DNA from: a virus
Taxonomy: Duplodnaviria > Heunggongvirae > Uroviricota > Caudoviricetes
DNA: 31,872 nt
Direction: 5' to 3' (one strand)
IMG/VR virus record: IMGVR_UViG_3300045988_180666
The notes beneath the pieces are model-generated. The model saw nothing but the letters and a program-made list of their open reading frames with translations, was not told the origin of the DNA and ran no database searches. Below are positions 15,339-31,872 of the stretch, one piece after another. Position numbers and translations under genes: made by a program. Numbering within the stretch: the stretch's first letter is position 1; each line of letters opens with the position of its first letter.

Positions 15339-15340
15339 TA

Positions 15341-16024: not shown

Positions 16025-16039
16025 ATCTTTTGTTATTTG

Positions 16040-16564
16040 TTAGTTATACATTCTCTTTGTTCTCGCTAGGAACATCGCTCCCATCACTTGTGCGCCACAT
16101 TCGGCTAGCTCGTTGGCGAACTCTCGGGCGGTCGCTCCGCTCGTCACCACGTCGTCGAAGATGATGACTTTCTTTCCGCTGAAGTACTCTCTATCGAGTG
16201 CCACTCTGTAGTCGAAGCTCTCACACACTCTGTCTGTGCTGAAGTGCTTGGCTGTGCGCTCTCCATAGATGGAAATGTGCTCGTTTCCGTTCTGTACCTT
16301 TGCGCCTTGGCTCACCTTTTGGGCGAAGCGAGAAAAGCGCTTGGTGTACTTCTTTGAGTTGGCTGCTGGAGCGCAAACCATCACGAAGTCGCTGGCTTTG
16401 TCGCCATAGGTGTTGACGAAAGAGCTGACCACCATATCGGCAGCTGCGTCTGTCGCCCACTGCTTTCCATCCTTGAAGGCAAAGATGAAGTTTCTCACTT
16501 GCTCTGCTTGTGCTGAGCGGTCGAAACGCTTGGAGCTGTACTCGTAATAATTGAAAGTTTTCAT
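16040..16564 (-). CDS. Phosphoribosyltransferase (PRTase) domain protein, ComF-like
   Basis: 174 aa. KKVIIFDDVVTSGATAREFANELAECGA matches the PRPP-binding loop of type I PRTases. No N-terminal zinc-ribbon. 15 nt upstream of radC. Confidence 0.7.
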   Translation of the reverse strand: MKTFNYYEYSSKRFDRSAQAEQVRNFIFAFKDGKQWATDAAADMVVSSFVNTYGDKASDFVMVCAPAANSKKYTKRFSRFAQKVSQGAKVQNGNEHISIYGERTAKHFSTDRVCESFDYRVALDREYFSGKKVIIFDDVVTSGATAREFANELAECGAQVMGAMFLARTKRMYN

Positions 16565-17360
16565 ACGCTTAAAATTTTTATTCTAGCCAGAGGGAGGAAG
16601 GAGCTTTTTTATTTGAACTCGTCTTTGCCTGCCCGTCTGAGAGTTTTTTTTATTCTGTCCGTCGGTCGTTTTTGTCGCTTTTTACGGTGCGATGCAGACG
16701 AGCGGAGAAGAGGTATGAAAGCCAAGGAATTTTGCAAAAAGTTTATGGAAAACCGTCATCTCTGATTGCGGAAGGCTGCCGAAAAGTTTTTGGAAAATAG
16801 ATTTATCGGTACTTGGTGCATGCCGTCCGCCGTACCTTTGCACCCGAAAAAGAGATAATGACCGATGGATAACCGATAAAGGGAAAAGCTCTCGGACAGG
16901 AAAAGCGGGCAAAGAAAAGGCTCTGCCTTACCTTGGTGGTTAAGCCTTAGCGACGTTTGAGCGCCATCACGGTCACCACCGCTTGAAAATTCGCAAATTT
17001 TAACCCTAGCGTATGAAATGAAAGATGGAAAATTTGCGTCATCAAAAACACCATGTTTTTCAGACTTCAGGAGGAAAAACATACCTTGGAGCGATGAAAT
17101 CGCAGCATTTGGCATGCTTCGACCCCGAGGTTGAAGATGCCGAATGTGTCGTTTTGCGACAGGTTTTCCACACCCACGGATTGGAAAACCCCGATTTTAT
17201 CGTGGTTTTAGGGATTCAAAGGGAAAATAATTCCCCTTTGTCGGCGATAGCACCCCCCACCGCCCTACGCCCGAGCGCGCCTTCCGCCCCCTTGGAAAAG
17301 ACGGAATATGTAAAAGACCGTTAACGTTTTTGTAGGAATGTAAAAAGCCAAAAGGCACGA

Positions 17361-17394
17361 AAAAAGGGAACACGCTTCGCAGCGCACTCCCCTT
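17361..17394 (-). terminator. Putative terminator after terL
   Basis: Minus strand GGGAGTGCGC-TGCGAA-GCGTGTTCCC (10 bp stem incl. 3 G-U pairs) followed by TTTTTTCG. Confidence 0.45.
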
Positions 17395-17462
17395 ATCGGC
17401 GGTCAAGCAAGAATGCCAGCCACCTAACTTATATAAGAATCGTACTATCTAAAGAAATCAAA

Positions 17463-19064: not shown

Positions 19065-19690
19065 AGTGCTTTGTCCTCCTTGACTTCTTCTGTAGGTGTA
19101 TATTCCAAGAGCTGTTCGTCGTAGTCCTCGGCCTCGATCTTGACGAGATCCATGGAGTTGTCGGTGTATTTCTTGACGAGCTTCTTGATGGTCTGCATCA
19201 CGTTAGGGATGCGCTTGAGACCCAAGTGTCGTGGGTCGGTGGTAGGGATGAAGACCTGAGGCTGAATCTGGTCGTAGCCGTTGTCGGTAGGATCCTCTTT
19301 GTCGAGCAGGTGATATTTGCCGTATGCAGCTGCGGCGGCAGCCATGGCTCGGGCATCGCCCATGGAGTCGGCCTTGTCGTAGGTGCGCTGTATCATCTGG
19401 TCGAAGCGATAGCGGGCGAAGTCTTTTGACACTTTTTGCAGGTTGCCCAATATGAGCTTGATGAGGTGCAGGTCGTTGTAAGCCATCATGCGCTGCACCT
19501 TGTAGTCGTGCATATCTTTATAGACCAGCTCTTGGTCGCTCTTGCGAGGGTTGATGAGCCACCAGGCATAGAGGGCACGGATGCGCAAAATGCGGTCGCG
19601 CACTGGGGCGGGCACATTTTGCGCATCCATCTCTTCGGGTGTGCGGTCCATCAGTTCGATGATGGCATCGATGTTGGCGGGTTCTCTCAT
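19061..19690 (-). CDS. Putative terminase small subunit
   Basis: ORF track, 209 aa. Directly upstream of terL with 4 nt overlap. Call is positional only. Confidence 0.45.
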   Translation of the reverse strand: MREPANIDAIIELMDRTPEEMDAQNVPAPVRDRILRIRALYAWWLINPRKSDQELVYKDMHDYKVQRMMAYNDLHLIKLILGNLQKVSKDFARYRFDQMIQRTYDKADSMGDARAMAAAAAAYGKYHLLDKEDPTDNGYDQIQPQVFIPTTDPRHLGLKRIPNVMQTIKKLVKKYTDNSMDLVKIEAEDYDEQLLEYTPTEEVKEDKAL

Positions 19691-19968
19691 ATTCTAATCT
19701 CCTCTAACATTTGGTTCAGATATTCGTGTGTGCGCTGCACCGCCTGTGGCGAGCCAGCCGCAGCCAGGTCTAGCTTGTTTTTGCGTATCTGCTGGCGCAC
19801 CGTCGCCATGCCCAAGTAATAGACACGGTGAAGCTCGGAGTCGGGCTTCAGTATCTCGTCACGCAGATCGTCCTCGCTAATATCCAAAAGGACGGACATC
19901 TCGGATATCGGAGTCAACGTCTCCGCGAAGTCTTGCACTTTTTTGAGTAATTCCTGAGAAATTTCCAT
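19687..19968 (-). CDS. Hypothetical small helical protein (start uncertain; possible DNA-binding)
   Basis: ORF track, 93 aa. Charged helical composition. Overlaps the upstream 191-aa ORF by about 92 nt unless translation starts at internal Met (about 19899). Confidence 0.45.
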   Translation of the reverse strand: MEISQELLKKVQDFAETLTPISEMSVLLDISEDDLRDEILKPDSELHRVYYLGMATVRQQIRKNKLDLAAAGSPQAVQRTHEYLNQMLEEIRI

Positions 19969-20452
19969 TGATTCTTAAGCTTTGAGTGTCACAATGAAGG
20001 GTATATCCGCCGAAGAGGTCGGCGAAGACCTGCGGGTCGGTGGTGATGATGGTTGACTCGTCACGGCTGCCGTAGGTCTGGTTTTGCGAGGTGACGACCG
20101 ACACGACGTGCTGGTCGTTGCGGAAGAGTGTCACCTTGGAGTGGTTTTGCCCCAGGAACACATCGTTGAAGCAGGTCTGCATCATGCGCCACAGCTGCAC
20201 GGTCTTTTTGCTCGCCTTGACATCGAGCAGCATCGTTGCCGACAGGATGCTGCCCGACTGGCGCATCAGGCGGAAGCCTCGCAGGAACTCCTCGGAGGTG
20301 GAGTAGGAAGACACCCACACATCTGCAGGGCCTATCTGGGAGAGAATCCACTTGATGAGACCGAGGGTGTGGAGGTGCCGCCCGAAGTAGGCTTGCGTCT
20401 GGGCATCGGCGATAGGACGGAGCAGGTCACTGACCTTGACCTTGGTCGGCAT
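19877..20452 (-). CDS. Hypothetical phage protein
   Basis: ORF track, 191 aa. No recognisable motif. Confidence 0.5.
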   Translation of the reverse strand: MPTKVKVSDLLRPIADAQTQAYFGRHLHTLGLIKWILSQIGPADVWVSSYSTSEEFLRGFRLMRQSGSILSATMLLDVKASKKTVQLWRMMQTCFNDVFLGQNHSKVTLFRNDQHVVSVVTSQNQTYGSRDESTIITTDPQVFADLFGGYTLHCDTQSLRINGNFSGITQKSARLRGDVDSDIRDVRPFGY

Positions 20453-21170
20453 TGGCGGCTAGCTTAGCCTTGGCTACACGGTCACGGTCGGCATTGGTAA
20501 CCTGGTATGAGTCGTAGGTGAGCATGTCGGCACGATAGCGCTTGTCGAGGTCGGAGAGTATCTTGAGAAGCTCGTATCGGTCGCATGGCTCAAGGCGCTC
20601 CATCGTCTTGAGCGTCTCGAAGGTCGATTTAATCTGCTTGTATCGCTTGGCGTTGGCATCCCAGAGAGCGGCAACCTCGGCAGGAAGGAACTCATGGTCG
20701 CTGCGCTTGCCCTTGCGGATGACCGCCACGCCATCGCTCTCGGAGGAAGGCAGCTCGGCATCATCGGTCGAGCCATCATCGTCGATGGAATCGGCATTTT
20801 TTGCGATTTCATTGCCATTTTCGTCGGTTTCATCGGTCTTTTTGGTCGTTTTCTCGGTCGTATCGGTCGTTTCTTCGGTCGTTGCCACAGGTACGCCCTC
20901 ACTGATGATGGCTTGCGCCTCTGGTATGACGATGGCATCCATCTGCTTGACCTCTTCGATGGTCATGCCATCGAGACGAATCTTCAGGAACTTATTCAGC
21001 TCATACTCGATGTTGGTGCGATAAACCTGTGGCTGTCGGGTGGCACGGAAATGGTAGAAGCGATTGCGGTTGAGACGGAAGAGCATGTCTGCGCCCTTGA
21101 TGATGTCAGCGTCGCTCTCGTGCTTGGCATTGAGCCACGCCTGTATCTGTTTGGTGAATTGATGATCCAT
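20427..21170 (-). CDS. Hypothetical phage protein with acidic Thr/Glu/Asp-rich low-complexity segment
   Basis: Track ORF 20427..21302. Start moved to ATG at 21170 (MDHQFTKQ...) because the track's upstream extension spans a terminator hairpin (21201-21229). Confidence 0.5.
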   Translation of the reverse strand: MDHQFTKQIQAWLNAKHESDADIIKGADMLFRLNRNRFYHFRATRQPQVYRTNIEYELNKFLKIRLDGMTIEEVKQMDAIVIPEAQAIISEGVPVATTEETTDTTEKTTKKTDETDENGNEIAKNADSIDDDGSTDDAELPSSESDGVAVIRKGKRSDHEFLPAEVAALWDANAKRYKQIKSTFETLKTMERLEPCDRYELLKILSDLDKRYRADMLTYDSYQVTNADRDRVAKAKLAANADQGQGQ

Positions 21171-21187
21171 ATATAAGAATGTTTTTG

Positions 21188-21229
21188 ATGAAAAGAACAA
21201 AGGTGGCTCAGGCACGAAGCGAGAGCCAC
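21188..21229 (-). terminator. Rho-independent terminator after capsid-region operon
   Basis: 8 bp stem GGTGGCTC (21201-21208) / GAGCCACC (21222-21229); plus-strand A-rich tract gives TTTGTTCTTTTCA on minus strand. Confidence 0.6.
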
Positions 21230-21286
21230 CTAAGCTTTGAAGTTTAAACCGTATGTAGTTATGCAAAAATTTGGGCAAATGAACGT

Positions 21287-21883
21287 TTATGCCGCCTCCC
21301 ATACAGAGCCATCGGAACCCTTGATGTCTCCGGACTCAGTCTCGATCTTGCCAGGATAGAACGGTGTAGGGCAGAAGTCTGTCGCCTCGGTGTTGACGGT
21401 CGTGGTGCAAGCATCGGTCACGCCGCTGCCTGATGCCTGGCTGACGGTAATCTTAGGTGCGAATGCCTCGCAGCCGATGAGACGGGCACGACCCTTGCGG
21501 TCTTGCACCATCATGATGAGCTCGTCGTTGATAGCCATGGTAGCGAAGCCACTGATGTCCTCGTCGGTACCACCCACCACGAACTCGCCTTTGTTGAGGA
21601 ACGTAGCGGAAGGTGCCTCGCCCTGAGTCTCTGCAGTAAAATTGCTCTTGGCATCTACGAGGTCGAGACTGTGCCACTTGGCATCGCTCGCCAAGGTGAA
21701 GTCGCCTGTATATTGAGCCAGCTTAGCTGGGTCTGTGGTCTCGTCAGTTGCCGCTGGCAATGTTGGCCAAGTCAGAATCTGACTCTTCAAGATGAAGAAA
21801 ACACGAGGGCGAACGCCTGGGGCTATGCGAGCCCCAGGACATTTCTTAACTGATTTATATAAATCTTTTGTATTACAAGCCAT
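21287..21883 (-). CDS. Hypothetical phage protein (possible head-associated protein)
   Basis: ORF track, 198 aa. Immediately downstream of putative major capsid gene. Followed by strong terminator. Confidence 0.55.
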   Translation of the reverse strand: MACNTKDLYKSVKKCPGARIAPGVRPRVFFILKSQILTWPTLPAATDETTDPAKLAQYTGDFTLASDAKWHSLDLVDAKSNFTAETQGEAPSATFLNKGEFVVGGTDEDISGFATMAINDELIMMVQDRKGRARLIGCEAFAPKITVSQASGSGVTDACTTTVNTEATDFCPTPFYPGKIETESGDIKGSDGSVWEAA

Positions 21884-21895
21884 AATTTTATCTCC

Positions 21896-21911
21896 TATAT
21901 ATAATAAGGTG
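21896..21911 (+). repeat. Copy a of 16 nt AT-rich repeat TATATATAATAAGGTG
   Basis: Exact 16-mer shared with 30310-30325; lies between capsid candidate stop and next gene start. Confidence 0.7.
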
Positions 21912-21916
21912 AAACT

Positions 21917-23035
21917 TTACTCCTTGCCCTCAGCTCCGGTATCGTCTGCAGAAGAATTCTTCTGCTCTGCATCGCTAGCTGTGTTGCTGCTTGCAGGATC
22001 AGCACCTGAACCCTTTGTGATGAGCGATGTGGTACCATCGTTTGTGATGAACAGGGCTCGTTCTTTATTGATGCTCTCGTACTGGCAACCTAAGAACTTG
22101 GTGGCGATGAAGTCGAGCTTCCAAGGGTGGTACTTTTCTACGCTGATCTTCTCCTCGTCGCTGTTGTTTGCCTCGTTGACACCCACGAGCATATTGTTGC
22201 GAGTGGTGAGCTGGAAGAACGGAGCGTTCTTCTTGTTGATGAGTGGTACCATCTCAACGTTGTCGAAACCCTCGACGGTGTTGTGGTTGTAACCGGTATT
22301 GTATGGCACATTGCCAAACTTATTGAGGTAGTTGCGGTTGTAGAGATTGATGAACGCCTGTGGAACGTAGAGATAAAGCTTCTCTTCGCCAATCAGTTCT
22401 TCGTCAGCCTCCTCGCAAATGGCCTGTGCGAAGTCAACGGCGTTATCGCTGCTGATATTCTTACCACTGCCCAAAATATCTGAAACTTTGATGAGGTTGC
22501 CGAGGTCTCGAGACAGCTTGCCATTAGTCAACTCAGTCTTGGCGATGGTATCGAAACCATTGAAGAGGTCTTTTGAGCCTTTGCCCTCGTCGTTGCGCAC
22601 GGCATCGAAGAGGTGGAGGTTGAGGTTCTTGCCCAGCTTGAGCGCCAAGAGCTGCAGCACCTGAAGGGTGATTGGCACGTTCTTAAGCGCTTCGCCATTC
22701 ATGGCGTTGGCCCCCCAAATGGTGGAATAAACTGAGTTCGGGGAGAACTTGATGTCAACGTTGCCGAGGAACACCTGCAAAGTGCGAGGTGTAATCTTTA
22801 CGCCACCATCGCCCACGCGGTTCTCGTCGTATGGACCAAACTCTGCGTTGCCGAGCAACTCGCCCACGGTCTCTGAAACTCTGATGCCCGGGCGCAGGGT
22901 CATGTACTTGAGTGACTGAGCCAAGCCTTTGGTAGGCATCGTAATCAACTTCGAACGGTAAGTTTTCGCAGTGTTCTGCAGCTGTACATCGACATCTACA
23001 GGCACAATGAATTTATTATCTGCCATATTATGCAA
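21917..23035 (-). CDS. Putative major capsid protein
   Basis: ORF track, 372 aa. Immediately downstream of the ClpP-like protease gene, which is the usual capsid position. Size fits HK97-fold capsids. No motif confirmation. Confidence 0.45.
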   Translation of the reverse strand: MHNMADNKFIVPVDVDVQLQNTAKTYRSKLITMPTKGLAQSLKYMTLRPGIRVSETVGELLGNAEFGPYDENRVGDGGVKITPRTLQVFLGNVDIKFSPNSVYSTIWGANAMNGEALKNVPITLQVLQLLALKLGKNLNLHLFDAVRNDEGKGSKDLFNGFDTIAKTELTNGKLSRDLGNLIKVSDILGSGKNISSDNAVDFAQAICEEADEELIGEEKLYLYVPQAFINLYNRNYLNKFGNVPYNTGYNHNTVEGFDNVEMVPLINKKNAPFFQLTTRNNMLVGVNEANNSDEEKISVEKYHPWKLDFIATKFLGCQYESINKERALFITNDGTTSLITKGSGADPASSNTASDAEQKNSSADDTGAEGKE

Positions 23036-24053
23036 ACTGATTTAAAACATCCAACACTTGATCTGAGCAGAAATCCTCGACCTTGGTGTCATCGACAGCA
23101 GTGTGCGTGTCGCCACCAGGCTCTCCCTCCAGATCCTTCACTTTATCCTTCAGGTCATCTCTCTCCTTTTCGAGATTCTTGACCTTAGTCTCTAACTCCT
23201 TCTTCTCGTCCTTGACCTTCTGAAGCTCTGTGTCTTTGTCGGTCACGGCCTTGGAGTCGGCAGCGATCTTATCCTCCAGTTTCTGCATCTGCTCCTGTGA
23301 GATTGTGCAGTTCTTTGCGGAATCTTCTGCCTCAATGCCCTCGATATTGAGGACATTGTTGATGTGAGTCCATTTTTTGATCATATTAATAATTTTATTT
23401 TGTGATTTATCTTTGCCGAATAATCGGTCGATGATGCTTGGCTTTTTATCATACCAGGAGTTAACAACCTCTGGGAGAACAGGAAGGTTGTTGTACTTGA
23501 TGAAGTCTTGCGTCTGCTCGGTGATGTCGGCAGGCTTGCCATCCATGGCTTCATCGACGAGACCCAGTTCGATGCACTCATCGACGGTGTGCCACATCGC
23601 TTCGGACATCACCTTGACGATGTCCTCGTGCTTCTTGCCCGAGCGATCGCAGTAAACGTTGGCGATGATGTTGTCGATTTTCTGCTGGTTCTCTTGCTGT
23701 TTTTGAAGTTGCTCGATGAGCGAGCCTATCTGCTCCTCGTTGAGCGCAGACCACACAAACTGCTCGGTAGAGCACTTGTGTACCAGGAGCAAGCTATATT
23801 TGCTCATGCGAATCTTGCTGGCACCCATCGCACAGATGGTGGCAGCAGAGGCAGAGAAGCCCGCCTGGAAGTCAACGGTCACGTCGCCATGGGACTTGAA
23901 CATCTGACAGATGGCGAGACCTGCGGAGACCTCGCCACCCAAGGAGTCGATGGCAACATCGACGTGCTTATCTTTGTTGGCCTTAAGAACATCGCGAACC
24001 ATGAGCTTGGTCCACGAGCCAATATATCCTGTGATAGAAATTTGGTACTTCAT
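23028..24053 (-). CDS. ClpP-like prohead serine protease with C-terminal coiled-coil (scaffold-like) extension
   Basis: 341 aa. DSLGGEVSAGLAI, GFSASAATICAMGA and LLLVHK resemble ClpP/S14 catalytic regions. C-terminal 100 aa is Lys/Glu/Asp-rich heptad-like (KVKDEKKELETKVKNLEKERDDLKDKVKDLE). Confidence 0.75.
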   Translation of the reverse strand: MKYQISITGYIGSWTKLMVRDVLKANKDKHVDVAIDSLGGEVSAGLAICQMFKSHGDVTVDFQAGFSASAATICAMGASKIRMSKYSLLLVHKCSTEQFVWSALNEEQIGSLIEQLQKQQENQQKIDNIIANVYCDRSGKKHEDIVKVMSEAMWHTVDECIELGLVDEAMDGKPADITEQTQDFIKYNNLPVLPEVVNSWYDKKPSIIDRLFGKDKSQNKIINMIKKWTHINNVLNIEGIEAEDSAKNCTISQEQMQKLEDKIAADSKAVTDKDTELQKVKDEKKELETKVKNLEKERDDLKDKVKDLEGEPGGDTHTAVDDTKVEDFCSDQVLDVLNQFA

Positions 24054-24074
24054 ATATCTTTGCGATTTTTACGG

Positions 24075-24084
24075 CGCAAAGATA
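24075..24084 (-). promoter_or_regulatory. Promoter -7 element for protease-capsid operon, embedded in a 12 bp-arm inverted repeat
   Basis: CGCAAAGATA about 22 nt from ATG at 24053; forms right arm of palindrome TATATCTTTGCG (24053-24064) / CGCAAAGATATA (24075-24086). Confidence 0.5.
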
Positions 24085-24113
24085 TATAATAATGTATAAG
24101 GATAAAAAAACTT

Positions 24114-24533
24114 TTATTGGATGATTTGGAGCGGTTTTATCACGTCAGACCATGTCACGGTATAAGTGATGAGCGATGAGTCTGTGTGTGAGCTTGGCAT
24201 ATTTTCGGTGCGAGTGAGCACCGGGAAGGGACGCTGGTCTCTGCCCAGAAGATAGGCGCACCCATCGGCGGTAGTCACCTTGTAGGCGAGCGGGTGAACC
24301 TCTGAGTCTATCTGCTCGCTCGACTTGAAGGTGAGCTTTGAAGTGAAAATGCGAACCTTGGACTCAATTTTGTCGGTGATTTCACAACTCGACGGCATTT
24401 TGCACTTTATCTGCTGGAAGACTGCACTTGCAGGAATGATGCAAAGATTTTTGGCTGGGAAGATGACAGCCTTGAGGTCATCGGCTCTCACGACCTCAAT
24501 CTTGATGATGTTTTTGATGTATGACATAAGCAT
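24114..24533 (-). CDS. Hypothetical phage protein
   Basis: ORF track, 139 aa. No recognisable motif. Confidence 0.5.
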   Translation of the reverse strand: MLMSYIKNIIKIEVVRADDLKAVIFPAKNLCIIPASAVFQQIKCKMPSSCEITDKIESKVRIFTSKLTFKSSEQIDSEVHPLAYKVTTADGCAYLLGRDQRPFPVLTRTENMPSSHTDSSLITYTVTWSDVIKPLQIIQ

Positions 24534-24612
24534 GAAAATTTATCTTTTTGTTTGGAATCGACGGATATTTCGGTTTTGTTCGGAGTTGTTTGCAGAGACG
24601 GAAAAATTTGTA

Positions 24613-25197
24613 TTAATCTTTGCTAAATCTTGTTGTAGATGTTAAATTTACGCCTCTTTTTGCGTGTTGATCACGCATTCTGTAGAAACATTGGCGTACG
24701 GTATCCTCGTAATCGATGCCAATGCCATGCTGTTCGCACCATGCCGAAATGAGCGATGAAAGCTTGCATGAGCGGTCGGCGATGTCTTTGAGCGAAGCCC
24801 AGAGATCCATCTTGAAGAGGTCGGAAATCATCTCTTTGACGGCACGTCTGGCACGTGGCCCGAGGTAGTTGTACTCTCGCACAGGCTTAGCCTTGGAGTC
24901 AGGCAGCTCGATGGCAAGATACTCTTCGGGATGGGTGAGCCATCGGCTCTGCTCGAACTCCTCGTCGTGGAAGGTATGCTTGACACTTTGGTGCAGTTGG
25001 CTGGCATCAGCCTGCTGCATCTCTTGGATGTTCTCTTGGTCGATAGGCGATAGGTTGACAACGGGAGGTCTGCTGGTGAACTTGCGGAGCACAGCCACCT
25101 CGTTGCCGATGGCAGGGAAGACCACTGGGTTGCCATAAGCTCGGTAAGCCCATTGTCTGATGTGGGTAGGAACTTTGATGTAAACAATTGGATTCAT
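24613..25197 (-). CDS. Hypothetical phage protein (about 194 aa)
   Basis: Track ORF 24613..25209 begins with a non-ATG start; first ATG at about 25197 (MNPIVYIKV...) lies about 20 nt downstream of TGCAAAGATA motif (25216-25225). Confidence 0.55.
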   Translation of the reverse strand: MNPIVYIKVPTHIRQWAYRAYGNPVVFPAIGNEVAVLRKFTSRPPVVNLSPIDQENIQEMQQADASQLHQSVKHTFHDEEFEQSRWLTHPEEYLAIELPDSKAKPVREYNYLGPRARRAVKEMISDLFKMDLWASLKDIADRSCKLSSLISAWCEQHGIGIDYEDTVRQCFYRMRDQHAKRGVNLTSTTRFSKD

Positions 25198-25215
25198 ATA
25201 GCTATGCAATTTTCG

Positions 25216-25225
25216 TGCAAAGATA
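25216..25225 (-). promoter_or_regulatory. Promoter -7 element for the 194-aa gene
   Basis: TGCAAAGATA about 20 nt from ATG at about 25197. Confidence 0.55.
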
Positions 25226-25339
25226 CAAAGAAAATTTGAAATAACTAACGATAATCGGTAAAAACTAACTTTTATCAGTAAATTTGGTGTGATATAATTT
25301 CGTCCGAAAAGTTTGTATTTTTGTATCGTACAAACAAGG

Positions 25340-25593
25340 CTCTGTAACTAGCTGATAATCAATACTATTTTTGTGATACAATTTTCTGATACAGAAATTG
25401 TAACTCTTTAGCTTTTGTAACTTGGGGTTTTGTCGAGGTCGAAGACCTGTAGGAGAAGGGGCTTGTTACAAACTTGAAAAACTTTGTAACAGAGTTGTAA
25501 CGCAACTTTGTAAACATCGGCAAGGCGGCTTAACTCCATCTTTTATAATTATTTACCTCTTTTGCCAACATTATGTTACAGAGTTACAAAGGA
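25340..25593. repeat. Iteron-like array of at least 9 TTGTAAC / GTTACAA elements in both orientations
   Basis: Copies at about 25343, 25399, 25416, 25464 (rev), 25485, 25496, 25507 (variant), 25576 (rev), 25584 (rev). Includes near-repeats TGTAACAGAGTTGTAAC and TGTTACAGAGTTACAAAG. Downstream of primase gene. Confidence 0.6.
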
Positions 25594-25733
25594 TTTGTAT
25601 AAAATAAAAGAAAGGGGTGTGGGGAAAACGATGGCACGGGGCGTGAAGGAGGATAGGGAAGGCCCATCGAGACACCCAGGACACCCCCATTGGCCAATGG
25701 AGGGGTAGCGAGACGAAACATCGCCCATGGCAA

Positions 25734-25770
25734 CGAAAAAAGGGAGCGACGGCCAATGCGCATCGCTCCC
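25734..25770 (-). terminator. Rho-independent terminator after primase-helicase gene
   Basis: 8 bp GC stem GGGAGCGA (25742-25749) / TCGCTCCC (25763-25770); plus-strand A-run 25736-25741 gives TTTTTT on minus strand. Confidence 0.65.
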
Positions 25771-25951
25771 TCGTAACATGGGAAAAGAATTATAAATCAG
25801 CAAAAATCTGCCTATGAAATCAGCCCTCGTCTGCTTGCAAAAATAGTGAAAAATTGCTTGAAAATTTAGCCGAAAATATTTGCATAATTCAGATATTTTT
25901 TGTACCTTTGCACTATAACTTGGGGCTATCTATTCTATTATATATGGATGG

Positions 25952-28906
25952 CTAGAAAGGTTTATCACTATCTTTATCTACCTTGCTCCAGTCAATGGTA
26001 GATTGATATTCACCCCCAGCTGCAGGGACATCAGCCTTGGCAGCTTGTTTATCCTCTTTTTTATCATCACTCTTCTTGCTTCGGAGATAGATCATCTCGA
26101 CAGGGCTGCCGTCTGGGTTAGCTGGATCGCGTCTGATGATGCGGTGCTGGCTGTTGCAGAGATCAGCTGGGTTCAGCTCTTGGATGTATGGACACAGCTC
26201 GACGAAGGCTCTGAGCTTTTTGGTGAAGCTCTGTGTGGTCGCCTTGTTGATGCCTGAGAACTGCTTGAAGTCATTGAACGCACGCTCTCTCACGATAAAT
26301 GTATCGAGTCGCTCGCTCTCTTCTGAGAAGTAGGATGCAGCCCAGTCTTCGAAGTTGACACCCATGTCGGCCTTGAACTTGCGCTTGATGATGTTATCCA
26401 TCGGTGGCATGATCTTGATAGGTTCGCCAGCCAAGGAGAGATAGAAACGACAGCACTGCAGGAAAAAGTTGATGTCAGCATTCCACTCATCCTCAGTGTA
26501 TGTCTTTGAGAAGAGATCTTCGTCGAAGTCATCACGGATGCTTCGGGTCTCTTGGTAATCATTCTCCTCTGTGCGCTGATGGTAATAGTCGGAGAACACC
26601 ATATAGAGCAGTCTCGCCTCTGAGGAAGGGTCGAAGTCTGCCGGCACGTAGTTGGTGGTGAAGGCAATCTTCGGGCTATCCTCGAAAGGAATTGTGAAGC
26701 TCTGGTTGTTCTTTGGGTTGACTGTCATATCTGAAGTAATGTTATCGTAAAATAAACCTGTGTTGAGATAGCGGTCACAGTCATCGAGGAGCAGCATCTG
26801 GGTGTGCTGTGTCACCTGATCGAAGACGTGTGGGTTGTCCATCAGCTTAGGGTTGCGTCCGGAAAGCTTGACTGTTTTCATCAGCAGTGAAAGCGTCTTG
26901 AAGAAGAAACTCTTACCGGAACGGCCGTTGCACTCGTTGTTTTCACCAATCTTGTTGTCCATCGCCATCGGAGCCCAAGCCCTGGATGGTGCCTTGTAAT
27001 GATGGAGCATGTAGCCGAAGGTGAAAATCTTGTTTATCAAGTTCTGCTTTTGCTCTTGTATCTCGTTGTCGGCAAGCCCTTCGCCAGCGATGTCGAAGAG
27101 GTGTGCCTTGTGGTATGCCTCTTTCTCCTCGATGCTCTTGTCCTCAAAAGCATACTCTAGCTCTTTGCGCCAGTAGGTGCGAGAGGCGTTGATGAGATAG
27201 CCGAAGAAGTGGGACTTCACGTTCTTGACCTCGATGTCGAACTTCGGCCTGCCATCCTCGTCGATGGTTCGGGTGATGGAGAACATGTCATCCAACTTCT
27301 TGAAGTTGTGGTTGATGACATTCTCTTGCCAAACATAGTTTTTGAGCGAGCTGCCCTCACGCTGGTACTCGTTTAGTCCATCTTTGGTGACCTCGACGCT
27401 GACACGAGGGAAGAAGAACAACTGCGAGTGGTTGGTGTAGCTGGTGAAGTCTAGCGTAATCTCTTGGAGCGAGTCGAGCGCCGATGCCGACAGCTTTGGC
27501 GTGTTGAGCACCAAGTTAAGGATGTCACGCTTCTCAGCTCTCTCGATGACCCATTGGCGGCAGAACTCACGGATGTCTCTCGTGGTGATGAGCTTGACGA
27601 TGTTGCCCGTGATGCGAACATATTTGGTGATGGTCGAGTTGTCATCGTGCAAGGTATAGAAACCATTGAGACGAAGAAAATTGTAGAGGCACGCCGTGTC
27701 GATGTAGTGGTCCCAGGTGTTAGCCTTTTTGTTGAGCTTGCTCACCCAAAATCGGGCTGGCATCGCCAGTGTCATGAGGTTGCGGAAGTCTTTGCGAGTA
27801 TTGCGCAGCTCCATCCAGTCTCGCAGGTCTTTGCGCCCCTTGCCACGGTTGTCGTGGTAGGTGCGAAGCCAAGAAGGCAACCATATCGTATGGATGTCGA
27901 TGAAGCGCAGGGCAAGCTCTGTGCCCTTGGCGATGCCCGTCTCGTCGATGTCGGGTATATTGTAGAGCACCTCGACATACTTCATAATCTCTCGGTACTC
28001 CTCGTCGCTGAGCTTGTAGGTCTCGGAGTTGAACCATAACGGGTTGTAGCCCATGGAACGGCAGCAGAGACTGTCACGCTCGCCACTGCAGATGAAAGCC
28101 TCGGGAAGTTTCTTCTCCTTGTAAGGCTTGGACTCGTCTGTGTTGGTCTTGTTGTACTCAGCCTCTTCACGGCGGTTGAACTCGTGATAGGCAGCCTTCA
28201 GCTCAGCTAGGCCATTGATGTATTGCTTAGGCTTGATGCCGTCTGGGGTGTAAGAGAATCGCCACTGCTTTTGGTAGTTGAGAGGCTCATATATCTTGTA
28301 GAACTTAACCTCAGGCTTGTCGCCTTCAGCTGGGCGAACCAAGCACTCACGCATAAAGATAGGGTAGTGCTCGTTGCTGTGCTTAATCTTGACCTTGCGG
28401 TCTTTGACGTATCCTATCCACTTGGCGGAATGCCAGTTGAGCGCATCGACGTGCTCTTGCTTGACGTTTGGACCCAGTACCTTCAGTTCATCTTCGGTGA
28501 ACTTCTCGTTCAGCTCGAAAGGTCTGGTACCATCTTTCTCGTTGATGGTGGCATCACGCTCTGTGAACGTAGGCTTGTTGACCTCTTTTTTGAGTTCATC
28601 GCTAACGTTGTATTCGGAAGCCAGTCGCAGGATAGCATCAGGAAAGCGGTCGATGCACTTCTCTCTCATGTAGAGGTCGATAGGTGACTCGGCAGATCCG
28701 TCGCCGCCGAAGTCTGTCACTCGCCAGCAGTCTTTGAACTTTTTGAGACTGCAGGAAGGTGTTTTCTCATTGCGGATGGCAAAGTGCTTTTTAGGCGTGC
28801 CAGTCGTGCAATATTTCTGGATGCATTCTTTTGCGTCCGGGTATAGTGAGATGATGATGTCGAGACCATCATCTGTAGCTTGATAAATTTGTTCTGCTTT
28901 GATCAT
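25952..28906 (-). CDS. Replicative primase / SF3 (D5/P4-like) helicase
   Basis: Track ORF of 994 aa. P-loop NGRSGKSF followed about 45 aa later by Walker B-like MLLLDDCD in C-terminal third. Track start overlaps the promoter -7 element, so the ATG at about 28906 (MIKAEQIYQ...) is the likely start. Confidence 0.7.
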   Translation of the reverse strand: MIKAEQIYQATDDGLDIIISLYPDAKECIQKYCTTGTPKKHFAIRNEKTPSCSLKKFKDCWRVTDFGGDGSAESPIDLYMREKCIDRFPDAILRLASEYNVSDELKKEVNKPTFTERDATINEKDGTRPFELNEKFTEDELKVLGPNVKQEHVDALNWHSAKWIGYVKDRKVKIKHSNEHYPIFMRECLVRPAEGDKPEVKFYKIYEPLNYQKQWRFSYTPDGIKPKQYINGLAELKAAYHEFNRREEAEYNKTNTDESKPYKEKKLPEAFICSGERDSLCCRSMGYNPLWFNSETYKLSDEEYREIMKYVEVLYNIPDIDETGIAKGTELALRFIDIHTIWLPSWLRTYHDNRGKGRKDLRDWMELRNTRKDFRNLMTLAMPARFWVSKLNKKANTWDHYIDTACLYNFLRLNGFYTLHDDNSTITKYVRITGNIVKLITTRDIREFCRQWVIERAEKRDILNLVLNTPKLSASALDSLQEITLDFTSYTNHSQLFFFPRVSVEVTKDGLNEYQREGSSLKNYVWQENVINHNFKKLDDMFSITRTIDEDGRPKFDIEVKNVKSHFFGYLINASRTYWRKELEYAFEDKSIEEKEAYHKAHLFDIAGEGLADNEIQEQKQNLINKIFTFGYMLHHYKAPSRAWAPMAMDNKIGENNECNGRSGKSFFFKTLSLLMKTVKLSGRNPKLMDNPHVFDQVTQHTQMLLLDDCDRYLNTGLFYDNITSDMTVNPKNNQSFTIPFEDSPKIAFTTNYVPADFDPSSEARLLYMVFSDYYHQRTEENDYQETRSIRDDFDEDLFSKTYTEDEWNADINFFLQCCRFYLSLAGEPIKIMPPMDNIIKRKFKADMGVNFEDWAASYFSEESERLDTFIVRERAFNDFKQFSGINKATTQSFTKKLRAFVELCPYIQELNPADLCNSQHRIIRRDPANPDGSPVEMIYLRSKKSDDKKEDKQAAKADVPAAGGEYQSTIDWSKVDKDSDKPF

Positions 28907-28932
28907 AATTCTTTTCCATTGTAAATTTGCTT

Positions 28933-28940
28933 GCAAAATT
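28933..28940 (-). promoter_or_regulatory. Promoter -7 element for primase-helicase gene
   Basis: Plus-strand CAAAATTA = reverse complement TAATTTTG, about 28 nt upstream of ATG at about 28906. Confidence 0.45.
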
Positions 28941-29074
28941 ATTGCAAAGCGAGTTCAAAACAAAATACTTATTTTTTGTCGCATAGAGCCTTTGGCTCAT
29001 ACTCGACGTATCTGTGGAGAGGGTGGCAGTATCTGCCATTGATGCAGTTGCTGCCATCCTCGCACTTTTGGCAT

Positions 29075-29386
29075 TTAATCGGTGGCATCGACTTTTATAT
29101 CAAAAGTGTCGTTGTGTAGCAACATCTTGGTATGAACATAAATTGGCTTTTGCTCATCCTCATCCCATCCAACCTCTCGGAAGTCTCTGCCATCGATATA
29201 GCATTCGGTGGCGTATCCTTTGTCGGTCCACTCTACGATATGGTCTTTGTCGAACTCGTCTCTTGCTGGCACTGTAGCCAGAACACGAGTGCCAAACTTG
29301 CTGTAGCTAATCTCGTGTATGGTTACGTTAGGATATTTCTCGATGATTGCCTCCTCGATAGATTTTGTCTTAGTCTTCTTTTTCAT
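29075..29386 (-). CDS. Hypothetical early-region protein
   Basis: ORF track, 103 aa. Third gene of minus-strand early operon. Confidence 0.5.
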   Translation of the reverse strand: MKKKTKTKSIEEAIIEKYPNVTIHEISYSKFGTRVLATVPARDEFDKDHIVEWTDKGYATECYIDGRDFREVGWDEDEQKPIYVHTKMLLHNDTFDIKVDATD

Positions 29387-29576
29387 TGTTCTTCATTCTG
29401 AATTTAACAATACCTGCCACGATGCCGTCTTCTTGGTCATCGTAGAACATATTTAAATCTGTTGTGCCCTTATGGAGTGTACCATAGGACACGTCAACGG
29501 CAACGCTGGCATCCTCGAAATCTTTGAGGATGGCTTGAAGCTGTTTGCTGTTGCATCTGACTGTCATTTTTCCCAT
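29370..29576 (-). CDS. Hypothetical small early-region protein
   Basis: ORF track, 68 aa. Confidence 0.45.
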   Translation of the reverse strand: MGKMTVRCNSKQLQAILKDFEDASVAVDVSYGTLHKGTTDLNMFYDDQEDGIVAGIVKFRMKNNEKED

Positions 29577-29788
29577 GATCCATCATTGATAATTTGCTCG
29601 ATGACCTCTCTGTCGATGGCACGCCAAGTATTGGTGCGCATCTTATTGTAGATGGTGTTCTGGCTCATCTCTAGCTTTAGCTGCAGTGTGGCCATGAACT
29701 TGCTTCTCTTTTTGCGTGGTATCTCATTATACCATGCGAGGATGATATTTTCATCATCATTTTTTTGTTTTTTTCTTGCATATTCCAA
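29564..29788 (-). CDS. Small basic protein, first gene of early lytic operon (Cro-like role possible); start uncertain
   Basis: ORF track, 74 aa with apparent non-ATG start at 29788; first in-frame ATG at about 29695. Divergent from repressor gene. -7 element about 22 nt upstream. Confidence 0.45.
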   Translation of the reverse strand: MEYARKKQKNDDENIILAWYNEIPRKKRSKFMATLQLKLEMSQNTIYNKMRTNTWRAIDREVIEQIINDGSWEK

Positions 29789-29902: not shown

Positions 29903-30280
29903 ATGTTTAATGGTCAGATAATCAGAAAGTTAATGTCGGATGCTGGCTTAACTAAAAAAGAGTTTGAAAGACGTATGTTCGGTAGTAAATCGACCGACCT
30001 CAACCATTTGGAAAAAGCGAAGAATCTTCGCAGTGACACTCTCGAACGTCTGCGTGATGTGTTGAAGTGCTCTATGGATGACTTCTTTACAGCACCCTCA
30101 TGGGCTGAGAACGGAAAGGGGACAGTCGTAGGCTCTAACAATGTGCTGTCAACAGTAGCCATCGGCAACGAAGTGATGGAAGCCCAATATCTCAAGGAGT
30201 TGCTCTTGGAGAAGGACAAACGCATCAGCACTTTGGAAAATTATATCAAGCTTCTGGAGACTAACTTAAATAAGGACTAA
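29903..30280 (+). CDS. XRE-family helix-turn-helix transcriptional repressor (phage CI-like), with C-terminal coiled-coil
   Basis: 125 aa. N-terminal IRKLMSDAGLTKKEFERRMFGSKSTDLNHLEKAKNLRSDTLERLRDVLKCSMDDFF is a typical HTH_XRE. No S24 peptidase domain. Only phage gene on plus strand. Confidence 0.65.
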   Translation: MFNGQIIRKLMSDAGLTKKEFERRMFGSKSTDLNHLEKAKNLRSDTLERLRDVLKCSMDDFFTAPSWAENGKGTVVGSNNVLSTVAIGNEVMEAQYLKELLLEKDKRISTLENYIKLLETNLNKD

Positions 30281-30309
30281 TACGAAACATAATTCGTAAG
30301 ATGAATCCT

Positions 30310-30325
30310 TATATATAATAAGGTG
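30310..30325 (+). repeat. Copy b of 16 nt AT-rich repeat TATATATAATAAGGTG
   Basis: Exact 16-mer, 30 nt downstream of repressor stop, near presumed prophage right boundary. Confidence 0.7.
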
Positions 30326-30486
30326 TATAAAATATATCGTATAATCTCAGCAGTGATATCCAACTCGTTAGTCCTGCCGCCGCAACTAGTTTCGGGTAAG
30401 AAGTTGGTAAACAACATCTTATCCGATTTCTGTTTTTCTATTGGAACTATATCAGAACGAAATACTTTCCATTCCACATTCCTTTG

Positions 30487-30527
30487 ATATTCAATATTTA
30501 ACACTTATTATTTGCGTATATTGAATA
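30487..30527. promoter_or_regulatory. Inverted repeat ATATTCAATAT / ATATTGAATA upstream of TetR gene (candidate operator)
   Basis: Arms at 30488-30497 and 30518-30527. A related palindrome ATTCAA-AGTATA-TTGAAT lies at 31229-31246 upstream of fabG, sharing the 11-mer GTATATTGAAT. Confidence 0.4.
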
Positions 30528-30542
30528 AAAGTGCTACTTTTG
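30511..30542 (+). promoter_or_regulatory. Bacteroidetes-type promoter of TetR gene (-33 TTTG, -7 TACTTTTG) overlapping an inverted repeat
   Basis: TTTG at 30511-30514 and TACTTTTG at 30535-30542, 20 nt apart. Inverted repeat TTGCACA (30540-30546) / TGTGCAA (30559-30565) overlaps the predicted start site. Confidence 0.5.
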
Positions 30543-30591
30543 CACATTGATAATTTATTGTGCAACCAAATCTCGATGGAGGTACTTCGTT

Positions 30592-31188
30592 ATGTCAATA
30601 TCAAAAACTAGACAGAAATTAGTGGATGTCGCTCGACAACTCTTTGCAAAGAACGGAATCGCCAATACAACGATGAATGACATCGCTGTGGCTTCTGGTA
30701 AGGGACGTCGCACGCTTTATACCTATTTTAGTCGTAAGGAGGACGTCTATTACGCAGTGATAGAGTCGGAATTGGAGCGCCTTTCTGACAAACTTGACGA
30801 AGTGGCCGCCAGTAAGATTCGACCTCAAGACAAAATCATCGAATTGATTTATACCCACTTGAGCATGATCAAGGAGACTGTTGTCAGAAATGGAAATCTG
30901 AGAGCTGAGTTCTTCCGCAATATTTGGATGGTGGAAAAGGCTCGCAAGAATTTCGATGAAGACGAGATAGAACTTCTCAGGAAGGTTTATTCCGAGGGCA
31001 AGGCGGACGGCGAGTTTGACATCGATAATGTAGATTTGGTGGCTGACATCACACACTATTGCATCAAAGGTCTCGAAGTTCCGTTTATCTATGGGCGATT
31101 GGGACATGGCTTGAACGTGGAGTCGAGCAAACCGCTGGTTGCCAAGGTTGTCTATGGTGCTTTAGGAAAGTCGGGAATGAAGTTGTAA
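30592..31188 (+). CDS. TetR/AcrR-family transcriptional regulator (host-type)
   Basis: Track ORF starts at 30547; ATG at 30592 (MSISKTRQKLVDVARQLFAKNGIANTTMNDIAVASGKGRRTLYTYF) gives the canonical TetR N-terminal HTH. Bacteroidetes-type promoter upstream. Confidence 0.8.
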   Translation: MSISKTRQKLVDVARQLFAKNGIANTTMNDIAVASGKGRRTLYTYFSRKEDVYYAVIESELERLSDKLDEVAASKIRPQDKIIELIYTHLSMIKETVVRNGNLRAEFFRNIWMVEKARKNFDEDEIELLRKVYSEGKADGEFDIDNVDLVADITHYCIKGLEVPFIYGRLGHGLNVESSKPLVAKVVYGALGKSGMKL

Positions 31189-31331
31189 GAGATTGCTTGC
31201 TAGAATAGCGAAATGCTCTTTTTCTGTTATTCAAAGTATATTGAATGATGGACTAAACTTTCTTGCAAATTCTCAGCAAATCACAAATTGAATAATATAA
31301 AGTGTTAAATATCAAATAAATAAAAAGAAAA

Positions 31332-31872
31332 TGGGATTATTAACAGGTAAGACAGCCCTTATTACAGGTGCTGCACGCGGCATCGGTAAAGCTGTCGCAA
31401 TGAAATTCGCATCAGAAGGTGCTAACATCGCATTCACAGACCTAGTTCTCAATGACGACATGGCTGCTGGTTTGGAAGCTACTCGTAAGGAAATCGAGGC
31501 TCTTGGCGTAACATGCCGTGCTTATGCTGGTAACGCTGCTGATTTCGCGGAGACAGACAAGACTGTTAAGCAGATTCATGCTGACTTCGGTTCTATCGAT
31601 ATTTTGGTTAACAACGCTGGTATCACTAAGGATGGTTTGATGCTCCGTATGAGCGAGGCTCAGTGGGATGCTGTGTTGAACGTTAACTTGAAGTCTGCTT
31701 TCAACTTCATCCACGCTTGTTCTCCTATCATGCTCCGTCAGCGCAGCGGTTCTATCATCAACATGGCTTCTGTAGTAGGTGTTCATGGTAACGCAGGTCA
31801 GTGCAACTATGCAGCTTCTAAGGCTGGTATGATTGCTTTGGCTAAGTCTATCGCTCAGGAGTTGGGTCCTAA
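31332..31872 (+). CDS. fabG: 3-oxoacyl-ACP reductase-like short-chain dehydrogenase, N-terminal 180 codons (gene continues past window end)
   Basis: Hand translation MGLLTGKTALITGAARGIGKAVAMKFASEGANIAF...NNAGITKDG...YAASKAG shows Rossmann TGxxxGIG, NNAG and YxxxK motifs of classical SDR/FabG. Not in ORF track (no stop in-window). Confidence 0.8.

What the first reader, a model, noticed from the sequence alone, without database searches (positions are those of the whole stretch)
30281..30546. Presumed prophage right boundary lacks integrase, tRNA or an obvious direct repeat within the window
Phage-type genes stop at the repressor (30280) and host-type genes begin at about 30590, but the 265 bp between holds no tRNA-like sequence and no integrase is encoded anywhere in the 30 kb of phage DNA seen. 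The integrase may lie beyond the left end, or the element may be an unintegrated phage contig carrying TetR/FabG-like cargo. The AT-rich 16-mer at 30310-30325 and a small hairpin with an AACTAGTT centre are the only candidate junction features.
Basis: inference. Interest (0 to 1): 0.4.

Follow-up and report, generated by a model that had tools for sequence, protein, structure and literature searches.

The report
Prophage end at a tRNA-Met remnant
The gap between the phage repressor and the host TetR gene holds the last 17 bases of a host tRNA-Met gene, which is the ordinary right-hand attachment site of a ~43 kb prophage whose integrase lies about 12 kb beyond the left edge of the window.

Summary
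Window 30370-30386 (AGTCCTGCCGCCGCAAC) is identical to the last 17 nt of a host tRNA-Met(CAT) gene. In phage-free genomes of the same species (identical TetR protein; Prevotella sp. CAG:732 / Segatella copri complex), that tRNA sits intact about 205 bp upstream of TetR.

Everything to the right of 30370 is collinear with the empty site, including the tRNA's own terminator hairpin. Everything to the left is phage.

An essentially identical phage (99.8-99.9% nt over the overlapping stretches) in an IMG/VR contig shows the other end: SLT gene, intact tRNA-Met, then a 387-aa tyrosine integrase. That places the integrase about 11.6-12.8 kb left of window position 1 and gives a prophage of about 43.3 kb.

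Across all fetched loci I counted 30 attB, 28 attR, 17 attL and 3 attP junctions (two independent attP contigs). One attP contig carries the window-type phage arm.

"No tRNA-like sequence / no direct repeat" is wrong in detail. "Unintegrated phage carrying TetR/FabG cargo" is refuted. This is a textbook tRNA-targeting temperate phage and of low novelty.

The parts
29903..30280 (+). Phage Cro/CI-type HTH repressor (125 aa), the last phage gene before the attachment site. It is transcribed toward the junction.
   Evidence: Pfam HTH_26, 7e-07. PHROG transcriptional repressor families. Homologues at 65-100% identity sit about 90-140 nt from the same 17-nt core in 30 IMG/VR contigs.
30281..30369 (+). 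Phage arm of the attachment site (P arm of attR), 89 nt. It contains the AT-rich stretch 30310-30325 and a small CCTTAT-ATATA-ATAAGG inverted repeat at 30307-30323.
   Evidence: Identical in other copies of the same phage that sit next to different host alleles (L009, L060, L172, L173) and in an attP-form contig (L174). It is unrelated to the empty-site sequence. Its fold is no more stable than shuffled sequence (z = -0.41).
30370..30386 (+). att core: the displaced 3'-terminal 17 nt of the host tRNA-Met(CAT) gene. It covers the last 3 nt of the T loop, the 3' strand of the T stem, the 3' strand of the acceptor stem, the discriminator and one C. The right prophage/host junction is at 30369|30370.
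   Evidence: Exact match to the 3' end of the ARAGORN-called tRNA-Met in empty sites L015-L017 and L092. One copy in the window. It is present at the same 205-nt distance from TetR in all occupied loci, and three different phage arm types converge on it. The same 17 nt end the intact tRNA at the other prophage end.
30387..30438 (+). Host sequence downstream of the tRNA (B' arm). It holds the tRNA gene's intrinsic-terminator-like hairpin (stem-loop 30392-30426) and a T-rich tract (30427-30438). The strain-specific near-palindrome 30380-30395 (AACTAGTT centre) overlaps the core/B' border.
   Evidence: Collinear with the empty sites apart from a few SNPs. The RNA fold is -21.2 kcal/mol, z = -2.5; the empty-site version is -24.3 kcal/mol, z = -3.3. 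The palindrome was found and is absent in other strains (CTAATG instead of CTAGTT).
30592..31188 (+). Host TetR-family regulator (198 aa), the first host gene to the right of the prophage.
   Evidence: Pfam TetR_N, 2.4e-12. 100% identical protein in the phage-free Prevotella sp. CAG:732 scaffold and in empty-site metagenome contigs.
31331..31872 (+). Host FabG-like short-chain dehydrogenase, truncated by the window end.
   Evidence: Pfam adh_short, 1.1e-48. The order TetR-FabG-pseudouridine synthase-TamB-Omp85 is the same in occupied and empty loci.
1..29788 (-). Phage body in the window. In order along the minus strand: early genes, a 994-aa primase/helicase-like protein, head protease, capsid region, large terminase, tail genes. 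The window's left edge cuts a 490-aa tail protein gene, so the phage continues beyond position 1.
   Evidence: PHROG hits: head maturation protease, terminase large subunit, tail protein. The ORF starting near 1362 runs off the left edge. L003 is 99.86% identical to window 2-12150 and continues leftwards for 8.6 kb more.

Best explanation
Window 30281-30546 contains attR, the right-hand attachment site of a ~43.3 kb temperate siphovirus-like prophage. The phage integrated by tyrosine-integrase site-specific recombination into the 3' end of a tRNA-Met(CAT) gene in a Segatella copri-complex bacterium (Prevotella sp. CAG:732-like).

The phage attP carries a 17-bp copy of the tRNA's 3' end (AGTCCTGCCGCCGCAAC), followed by its own copy of a terminator hairpin. 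Recombination within this 17-bp identity splits the tRNA gene.
- At the left end (attL, about 12.9 kb beyond the window), the host 5' part joins the phage-borne 17 nt and phage terminator. This regenerates an intact tRNA-Met next to the 387-aa integrase gene.
- At the right end (attR, in the window), the phage arm next to the repressor gene is joined at 30369|30370 to the displaced original 17-nt tRNA end, its terminator and the TetR-FabG host genes.

Shown here: the junction position, the tRNA identity of the core, the empty sites, the int/tRNA end in a 99.8-99.9% identical phage, and attP-form contigs.

Inferred: that the window's own genome has the same left end; that the integrase shown is the enzyme responsible; where inside the 17 bp the strands are cut; and that the retained terminator stops read-through from the repressor gene.
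For: - Empty sites. Contigs encoding the identical TetR protein carry an intact tRNA-Met(CAT) about 205 bp upstream (L015-L017). So does the Prevotella sp. CAG:732 scaffold (L092). Twenty-two genome loci from the Segatella/Prevotella search have the tRNA directly upstream of TetR and one is occupied.
- Junction. Alignments A1 and A2 show the window collinear with the empty site from 30370 rightwards. Three unrelated phage-arm types converge at the same base.
- Same phage arm, different hosts. The identical phage arm is joined to three other host alleles (L060, L172, L173). So sequence right of ...GCAAC follows the host and sequence left of AGTCC follows the phage.
- Other end. In L036/L021 the tape-measure protein is 100% identical to that of L003, the contig that extends the window leftwards. 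L036 is 99.9% identical to window 2-4737, and L061, from the same contig, is 99.8% identical to window 26904-30280. That contig shows int (Pfam Phage_integrase 1.7e-11 plus SAM-like domain), an intact tRNA-Met and the SLT gene.
- Complete att quartet for a sister phage. attP L074, attB L095, and attL L038 with attR L066 on one contig, have arms that match pairwise.
- attP form with the window-type P arm joined to the int upstream region (L174).
- Census over all fetched loci: 30 attB, 28 attR, 17 attL, 3 attP.
- The architecture (regenerated tRNA plus displaced fragment marking the ends) is the standard one described for tRNA-integrating islands (PMC4383910 abstract).
Against: - The left end was not seen in the window's own contig. 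It is inferred from near-identical copies (L003 at 99.86%, L036 at 99.9%), and phages of this group are mosaic. For example, L021 shares the tail end but has a 65%-identical repressor.
- No experiment shows that this integrase acts on this site or that this particular prophage is still excision-competent.
- The identity between attP and attB starts only at the 5th base of the T loop, so the usual symmetric T-loop crossover model does not obviously fit. The cleavage positions are unknown.
- The hairpin segment next to the core looks exchanged between phage and host alleles. A crossover confined to the 17 bp does not explain that.
Confidence: 0.93

Rival explanations
1. The window is part of an unintegrated (linear or circular) phage genome, and TetR/FabG are phage-borne cargo genes. 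On this reading there is no host junction in 30281-30546.
For: No integrase or tRNA is detectable within the window. A GenBank record labelled 'Bacteriophage sp.' (MT835698.1) contains TetR-FabG homologues.
Against: - TetR-FabG-pseudouridine synthase-TamB-Omp85 occur without any phage next to an intact tRNA-Met, in metagenome contigs encoding the identical TetR and in isolate or MAG genomes of Segatella/Prevotella.
- GC content drops from about 50-55% in the phage to about 40% at the right end.
- The attP-form contigs join the repressor arm to int, not to TetR.
- MT835698.1 itself starts inside the tRNA-Met and then carries only host-type genes.
Confidence: 0.01
2. The element is a Mu-like transposable phage, or otherwise integrase-less. 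It would have inserted by transposition, so no tRNA or att repeat is expected and the end would be a transposase-binding terminus.
For: The layout resembles the Mu left end: an outward-facing repressor at the very end, divergent small early genes, then a large 994-aa protein. No integrase lies in 30 kb.
Against: - The 994-aa protein has no transposase domain: no Pfam hit, and only an unknown-function PHROG with a P-loop region.
- Every copy, of several arm types, sits at exactly the same base of the same tRNA gene. That is site-specific insertion, not transposition.
- A tyrosine integrase lies at the other end.
- The flanking repeat is a 17-nt tRNA segment, not a short target-site duplication.
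Confidence: 0.01
3. The window's copy is a decayed prophage remnant whose left part (integrase, attL) has been deleted or rearranged. On this reading the junction at 30370 would be a fossil that can no longer excise.
For: The left end was not observed on the window's own contig. Prophage decay is common (general knowledge).
Against: - Four metagenome contigs whose sequence, where checked (L003), is 99.86% identical to window 2-12150 continue through the DGR, the lysis genes and the tape-measure gene. Their lengths place the contig ends about 1.1-1.2 kb past the expected tRNA, the same host position where the empty-site contigs break.
- All window ORFs are intact, and long uninterrupted ORFs occur throughout.
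- An attP-form contig with this P arm exists.
Confidence: 0.05

Closest known systems
tRNA/tmRNA-gene-integrating prophages and genomic islands with tyrosine integrases (the class catalogued by Islander; PMC4383910)
   Same: Site-specific insertion into the 3' part of a tRNA gene. The element carries a copy of the tRNA 3' end, so the gene is regenerated at the integrase-proximal end. The displaced 3' fragment forms a direct repeat at the other end. The integrase gene lies next to the regenerated tRNA. All of this was seen here.
   Different: The target is a tRNA-Met(CAT) with initiator-like features (C1xA72, A11:U24; my reading of the sequence). The identity block is only 17 bp and starts inside the T loop. 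The phage also carries a look-alike of the tRNA's terminator hairpin.
Porphyromonas gingivalis prophages (GenBank BK068097-BK068111, PP754931), the closest annotated phages by integrase
   Same: Temperate Bacteroidota phages of 42-50 kb with an end-located tyrosine integrase. The integrases align over 96-99% of their length.
   Different: Only 33-34% integrase identity. There is no nucleotide similarity to the window in GenBank phages: the only 'near' hit was to the host FabG part. I did not examine their att sites.
Bacteroides NBU1/NBU2-type mobilizable elements, which integrate into the 3' ends of tRNA-Leu/tRNA-Ser (from my own knowledge, not tested here)
   Same: A Bacteroidota tyrosine integrase that uses a short (13-14 bp) identity with the 3' end of a tRNA gene.
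   Different: Those are small mobilizable elements, not phages. The relationship between the integrases was not tested.

Membership tests
tRNA-gene-integrating temperate phage (tyrosine-integrase tDNA island) | Displaced 3' fragment of a tRNA gene at one end of the element | tested here: met
   Window 30370-30386 equals the last 17 nt of the tRNA-Met(CAT) called by ARAGORN in the empty sites.
tRNA-gene-integrating temperate phage (tyrosine-integrase tDNA island) | Regenerated, intact tRNA gene at the other end, forming a direct repeat with the fragment | tested here: met
   Not in the window. Shown in L036, which is 99.9% identical to window 2-4737, and in L021 and others: tRNA-Met ending in the same 17 nt. 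Same-contig attL+attR pairs exist: L021/L083, L038/L066, L026/L067.
tRNA-gene-integrating temperate phage (tyrosine-integrase tDNA island) | Tyrosine integrase gene encoded by the element, next to the att site | tested here: met
   A 387-aa ORF lies 117 nt from the tRNA in L021/L036. Pfam Phage_integrase 1.7e-11 plus Phage_int_SAM_1; NCBIfam Xer-like hits. It is absent from the window itself. Catalytic residues were not checked individually.
tRNA-gene-integrating temperate phage (tyrosine-integrase tDNA island) | Uninterrupted target (attB) in related genomes, collinear with both flanks | tested here: met
   L015-L017 and L092 (TetR 100% identical) show SLT-tRNA-Met-TetR-FabG. In all, 30 attB loci were counted.
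tRNA-gene-integrating temperate phage (tyrosine-integrase tDNA island) | Excised/circular form with the attP junction (P arm-core-P' arm) | tested here: met
   L074/L023, a 40,998-nt IMG/VR contig, reads repressor-core-int. L174 joins the window-type P arm to the int upstream region. These are assemblies, not experiments.
tRNA-gene-integrating temperate phage (tyrosine-integrase tDNA island) | Integrase-dependent integration and excision demonstrated experimentally | not testable with these tools
   Needs induction and PCR, or in vitro recombination.
Mu-like transposable phage | DDE transposase, and insertion at many different sites with short target duplications | tested here: not met
   No transposase domain in the window ORFs. 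All copies sit at one tRNA position.
Phage-borne cargo (TetR/FabG as moron genes) | Cargo genes travel with the phage and are absent from phage-free chromosomes | tested here: not met
   TetR-FabG are present in all empty sites and absent from the attP-form contigs.

The most novel reading that the evidence does not exclude
The roughly 45-nt terminator-hairpin segment immediately right of the 17-bp core may be exchanged between phage and host during lysogeny cycles, so that the phage P' arm carries the tRNA-terminator allele of a previous host.

Two observations suggest this. L174, the attP form of the window-type phage, carries the exact S. copri-type host allele. L038 carries the exact CAG:732-type allele although it sits in an S. 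hominis-type host. This would imply a second crossover zone near CTTATCCGATTT, or frequent homologous recombination or gene conversion between the imperfect ~65-nt repeats. It would also give a sequence record of host switching within the Segatella copri complex.
Probability: 0.3. Interest if true: 0.35.

Novelty: new member of a known kind. Interest (0 to 1): 0.15.

Why it matters
The result fixes the prophage boundary to the base (30369|30370). It gives the element's true size (about 43.3 kb) and explains why the window shows no integrase, tRNA or repeat. That allows clean annotation: TetR/FabG are host genes, not phage cargo, and the short minus-strand ORF 30277-30504 that spans the junction is probably spurious.

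It also identifies a widespread family of Segatella copri-complex temperate phages that all use one tRNA-Met site. That could be useful for prophage typing and for designing attB/attP PCR assays in this abundant but poorly tractable gut genus. Mechanistically it adds nothing new to the standard model of tRNA-targeted integration.

Tried and rejected
- **Mu-like transposable phage.** My first guess from the end-located repressor and the 994-aa neighbour. I rejected it because there is no transposase domain, the P-loop protein looks like a primase/helicase, the insertion point is fixed, and an integrase lies at the far end.
- **tRNA and RNA finders on the window.** ARAGORN on the window and Rfam on 29700-30700 at E<=10 found nothing useful. 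The remnant is too short for them.
- **Repeat search inside 29700-30700.** It returned only short, chance-level repeats. No second core copy exists in the window, even at up to 3 mismatches.
- **megablast of window 7000-31872 against GenBank phages.** The only hit was the host FabG part in MT835698.1. This turned out to be the lead to the tRNA, not a related phage.
- **Tandem second prophage.** I considered this as an explanation for a tape-measure gene lying after the lysis genes. I rejected it because no core copy lies between them in L002-L005.
- **Exact-pattern search for the predicted window-type attP** (P arm + core + NAATATCGGG) in IMG/VR and in JGI metagenomes found nothing. A shorter pattern (P arm + core) found L174, whose hairpin segment is a host allele.
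- **Consensus terminator scan.** It did not flag the tRNA terminator because the stem has an internal mismatch. The ViennaRNA fold shows it.
- **Literature searches** for Prevotella/Segatella copri prophages at tRNA sites returned nothing specific.
- **Arm-type integrase sites.** Some other arm types have a GGCGG..AGG inverted copy of the core and a CTTATC(CG) direct repeat. The window-type arm lacks a clean version, so I make no claim.

Full report
**What is in the interval**

The window carries minus-strand phage genes from its left edge to 29788. These are followed by a plus-strand Cro/CI-type HTH repressor (29903-30280; Pfam HTH_26), a TetR-family gene (30592-31188) and a FabG-like gene (31331 onwards).

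ARAGORN finds no tRNA in the window. Rfam finds nothing credible in 29700-30700. None of the window ORFs I scanned is an integrase or transposase, and tblastn with the family's own integrase also finds nothing in the window. The window's left edge lies inside a long minus-strand ORF, so the phage is truncated by the window.

**The lead**

A megablast of the window against GenBank phages hit only the FabG part, in MT835698.1, an unannotated "Bacteriophage sp." record. That record begins in the 3' half of a tRNA (…CTCATAA…TTCGAGTCCTGCCGCCGCAAC) and continues with TetR-FabG. The window contains the same AGTCCTGCCGCCGCAAC at 30370-30386, and the downstream sequence is homologous.

**Empty sites**

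Looking up the exact TetR protein returned two kinds of contig.
- Seven metagenome contigs had a related prophage directly upstream (L008-L014).
- Three had no phage (L015-L017). In these, ARAGORN calls an intact tRNA-Met(CAT) about 205 bp upstream of TetR, preceded by an SLT-domain gene.

Alignment A1 shows that the window is collinear with the empty sites from 30370 rightwards, apart from a few SNPs. To the left of 30370 it is unrelated. The 17-mer is the end of the tRNA: the last three T-loop bases, the 3' strand of the T stem, the 3' strand of the acceptor stem, the discriminator and one C.

Alignment A2 shows that three unrelated phage-arm types in L008-L014 all switch to host sequence at exactly this base (motif positions). 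The 17-mer occurs once in the window. Even allowing three mismatches, only 0.09 matches are expected by chance.

A species-representative genome scan identifies the host as Prevotella sp. CAG:732, in the Segatella copri complex. Its TetR is 100% identical and its site is empty (locus L092). In that scan, 22 loci carry the intact tRNA upstream of TetR and one is occupied.

**The other end**

Looking up the leftmost complete window protein gave contigs that extend the window leftwards (L002-L005; L003 is 99.86% identical to window 2-12150). They carry, in order, the rest of the tail protein, a reverse transcriptase, an amidase, DUF6549 and a 1448-aa tape-measure protein. There is no tRNA or integrase within 10 kb of that protein, about 8.6 kb beyond the window's left edge.

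Using the tape-measure fragment as a query in IMG/VR gave contigs with 100% identical tape-measure protein. L036 is 99.9% identical to window 2-4737. L061, from the same 43,882-nt contig, is 99.8% identical to window 26904-30280. So this contig is essentially the window's phage.

In L021 and L036 the order is: tape-measure protein, a 632-aa ORF, a 387-aa ORF on the opposite strand, tRNA-Met, then the SLT gene. The 387-aa protein has Phage_integrase and SAM-like domains and Xer-like NCBIfam hits.

Mapped to window coordinates:
- the integrase lies at about -12,760 to -11,600;
- the attL core lies at about -12,900 to -12,880;
- the prophage is about 43.3 kb.

The metagenome contigs that extend the window end about 1.1-1.2 kb past the expected tRNA position. 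That is the same host position at which the empty-site contigs break.

**The att quartet**

For a sister phage, all four sites are available and their arms match pairwise: attP (L074, repressor-core-int on a 40,998-nt contig), attB (L095, Segatella hominis), and attL (L038) with attR (L066) on one contig.

The window-type phage arm is found joined to three other host alleles (L060, L172, L173). It is also joined to the integrase upstream region in a 1,084-nt gut-metagenome contig (L174), which is an attP form.

Over all fetched loci I counted 30 attB, 28 attR, 17 attL and 3 attP junctions. The three attP loci come from two contigs.

In the window's phage, the phage-side sequence after the core (P') reads CAATATC…, and the host-side sequence (B') reads TAGTTTC…. 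The exact repeat is therefore the 17 bp. In S. hominis-type hosts it is 20 bp.

**Mechanism**

This is the standard architecture of tRNA-targeted integration by a tyrosine integrase. The element restores the split gene, and the regenerated tRNA and its displaced fragment mark the two ends (PMC4383910 abstract).

The phage also supplies a look-alike of the tRNA terminator hairpin at attL. The original host hairpin (30392-30426) and its T-rich tract (30427-30438) remain at attR. There it plausibly terminates read-through from the repressor gene; this is inference.

The positions of strand cleavage inside the 17 bp are unknown. Identity between attP and attB begins only at the fifth T-loop base, so a simple symmetric T-loop model does not obviously apply.

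From my own reading, the tRNA has C1xA72 and A11:U24. These features suggest an initiator tRNA. This was not tested.

The AT-rich 16-mer (30310-30325) lies in the phage arm, 45-60 nt from the junction. It is part of a small inverted repeat (30307-30323) whose fold is no more stable than shuffled sequence.

The AACTAGTT near-palindrome (30380-30395) straddles the right edge of the core. It depends on SNPs private to this strain, because other strains read CTAATG. It is therefore a coincidence of position, not a conserved junction element.

**Comparison and novelty**

The closest annotated phages by integrase are Porphyromonas gingivalis prophages, at 33-34% identity. The large terminase is at most 34% identical to any GenBank phage. 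Literature searches found no description of this phage group.

The group is common in IMG/VR and in gut metagenomes. It is thus an undescribed but ordinary member of a very well known kind. The finding itself (a boundary without integrase, tRNA or repeat) is explained by window truncation and by the shortness of the tRNA remnant.

**Rejected alternatives**

TetR/FabG as phage cargo, a Mu-like transposable phage and a junction elsewhere are all refuted by the empty sites, the fixed insertion point and the integrase at attL. A decayed remnant lacking its left end cannot be excluded for this particular genome, but it is unlikely.

Noticed in passing
window 2-63 (minus strand) and beyond the left edge; L003 12088-12206 (VR), 12498-12616 (TR), 12828-14402 (reverse transcriptase): The phage carries a diversity-generating retroelement. 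A 119-nt variable region at the 3' end of the 490-aa tail-protein gene (its first ~62 nt are the window's first bases) matches a template repeat upstream of a reverse transcriptase (phrog_1423, 2e-53). All 11 differences fall at template adenines.
   Followed up: yes
L174 (whole, 1084 nt); L038 about 17470-17515 (minus strand); compare window 30387-30430: The ~45-nt terminator-hairpin segment right of the core appears to be swapped between phage and host. The attP-form contig L174 carries the exact S. copri-type host allele. The P' arm of L038 carries the exact CAG:732-type host allele while sitting in an S. hominis-type host. A crossover confined to the 17-bp core does not explain this.
   Followed up: partly
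L083 3485-3530; L074 3456-3547; L089, L070 (P arms): In other phage-arm types, a GGCGG(T/C)AG.AGG motif about 12 nt left of the core is an inverted copy of the core's CCTGCCGCC. A CTTATC(CG) motif is directly repeated in the P arm and in the hairpin's 3' half. These could be integrase-binding sites. The window-type arm lacks a clean version.
   Followed up: partly
L001 (MT835698.1 1-21402): This GenBank record is labelled 'UNVERIFIED: Bacteriophage sp.'. It starts inside the tRNA-Met gene and then shows TetR, FabG and long ORFs matching in size and position the host genes (pseudouridine synthase, TamB, Omp85) seen downstream in L008-L017. It looks like a Segatella chromosomal fragment that broke at the att site, not a phage.
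   Followed up: partly
L003 15158-20765 (left of the window): A 1448-aa tape-measure-like gene (PhageMin_Tail; phrog_25337) lies after the lysis genes (Amidase_2, DUF6549) and next to the integrase end. The window's own tail region contains a separate 1159-aa protein (3623-7102). This is an unusual gene order for a siphovirus-like phage. No att core lies between them, so it is not a tandem prophage.
   Followed up: partly
L063 3001-4431: In one IMG/VR contig the repressor and core are followed by the SLT-domain gene in inverted orientation instead of TetR. This suggests a host rearrangement, or an inversion between att sites, in that genome.
   Followed up: no
window 30277-30504 (minus strand): A 75-aa GTG-started ORF spans the phage/host junction. 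Gene callers report ORFs of 35-64 aa here in different contigs. Because it crosses the att site and has no family hit, it is probably spurious.
   Followed up: partly
L036 17617-17692 versus L015 1405-1478: With the window-type phage, the regenerated tRNA at attL reads ...GCAAC|CA, so the gene now encodes a full CCA end and ARAGORN nt. The uninterrupted host gene encodes only ...GCAAC|TA and is called at 74 nt.
   Followed up: no
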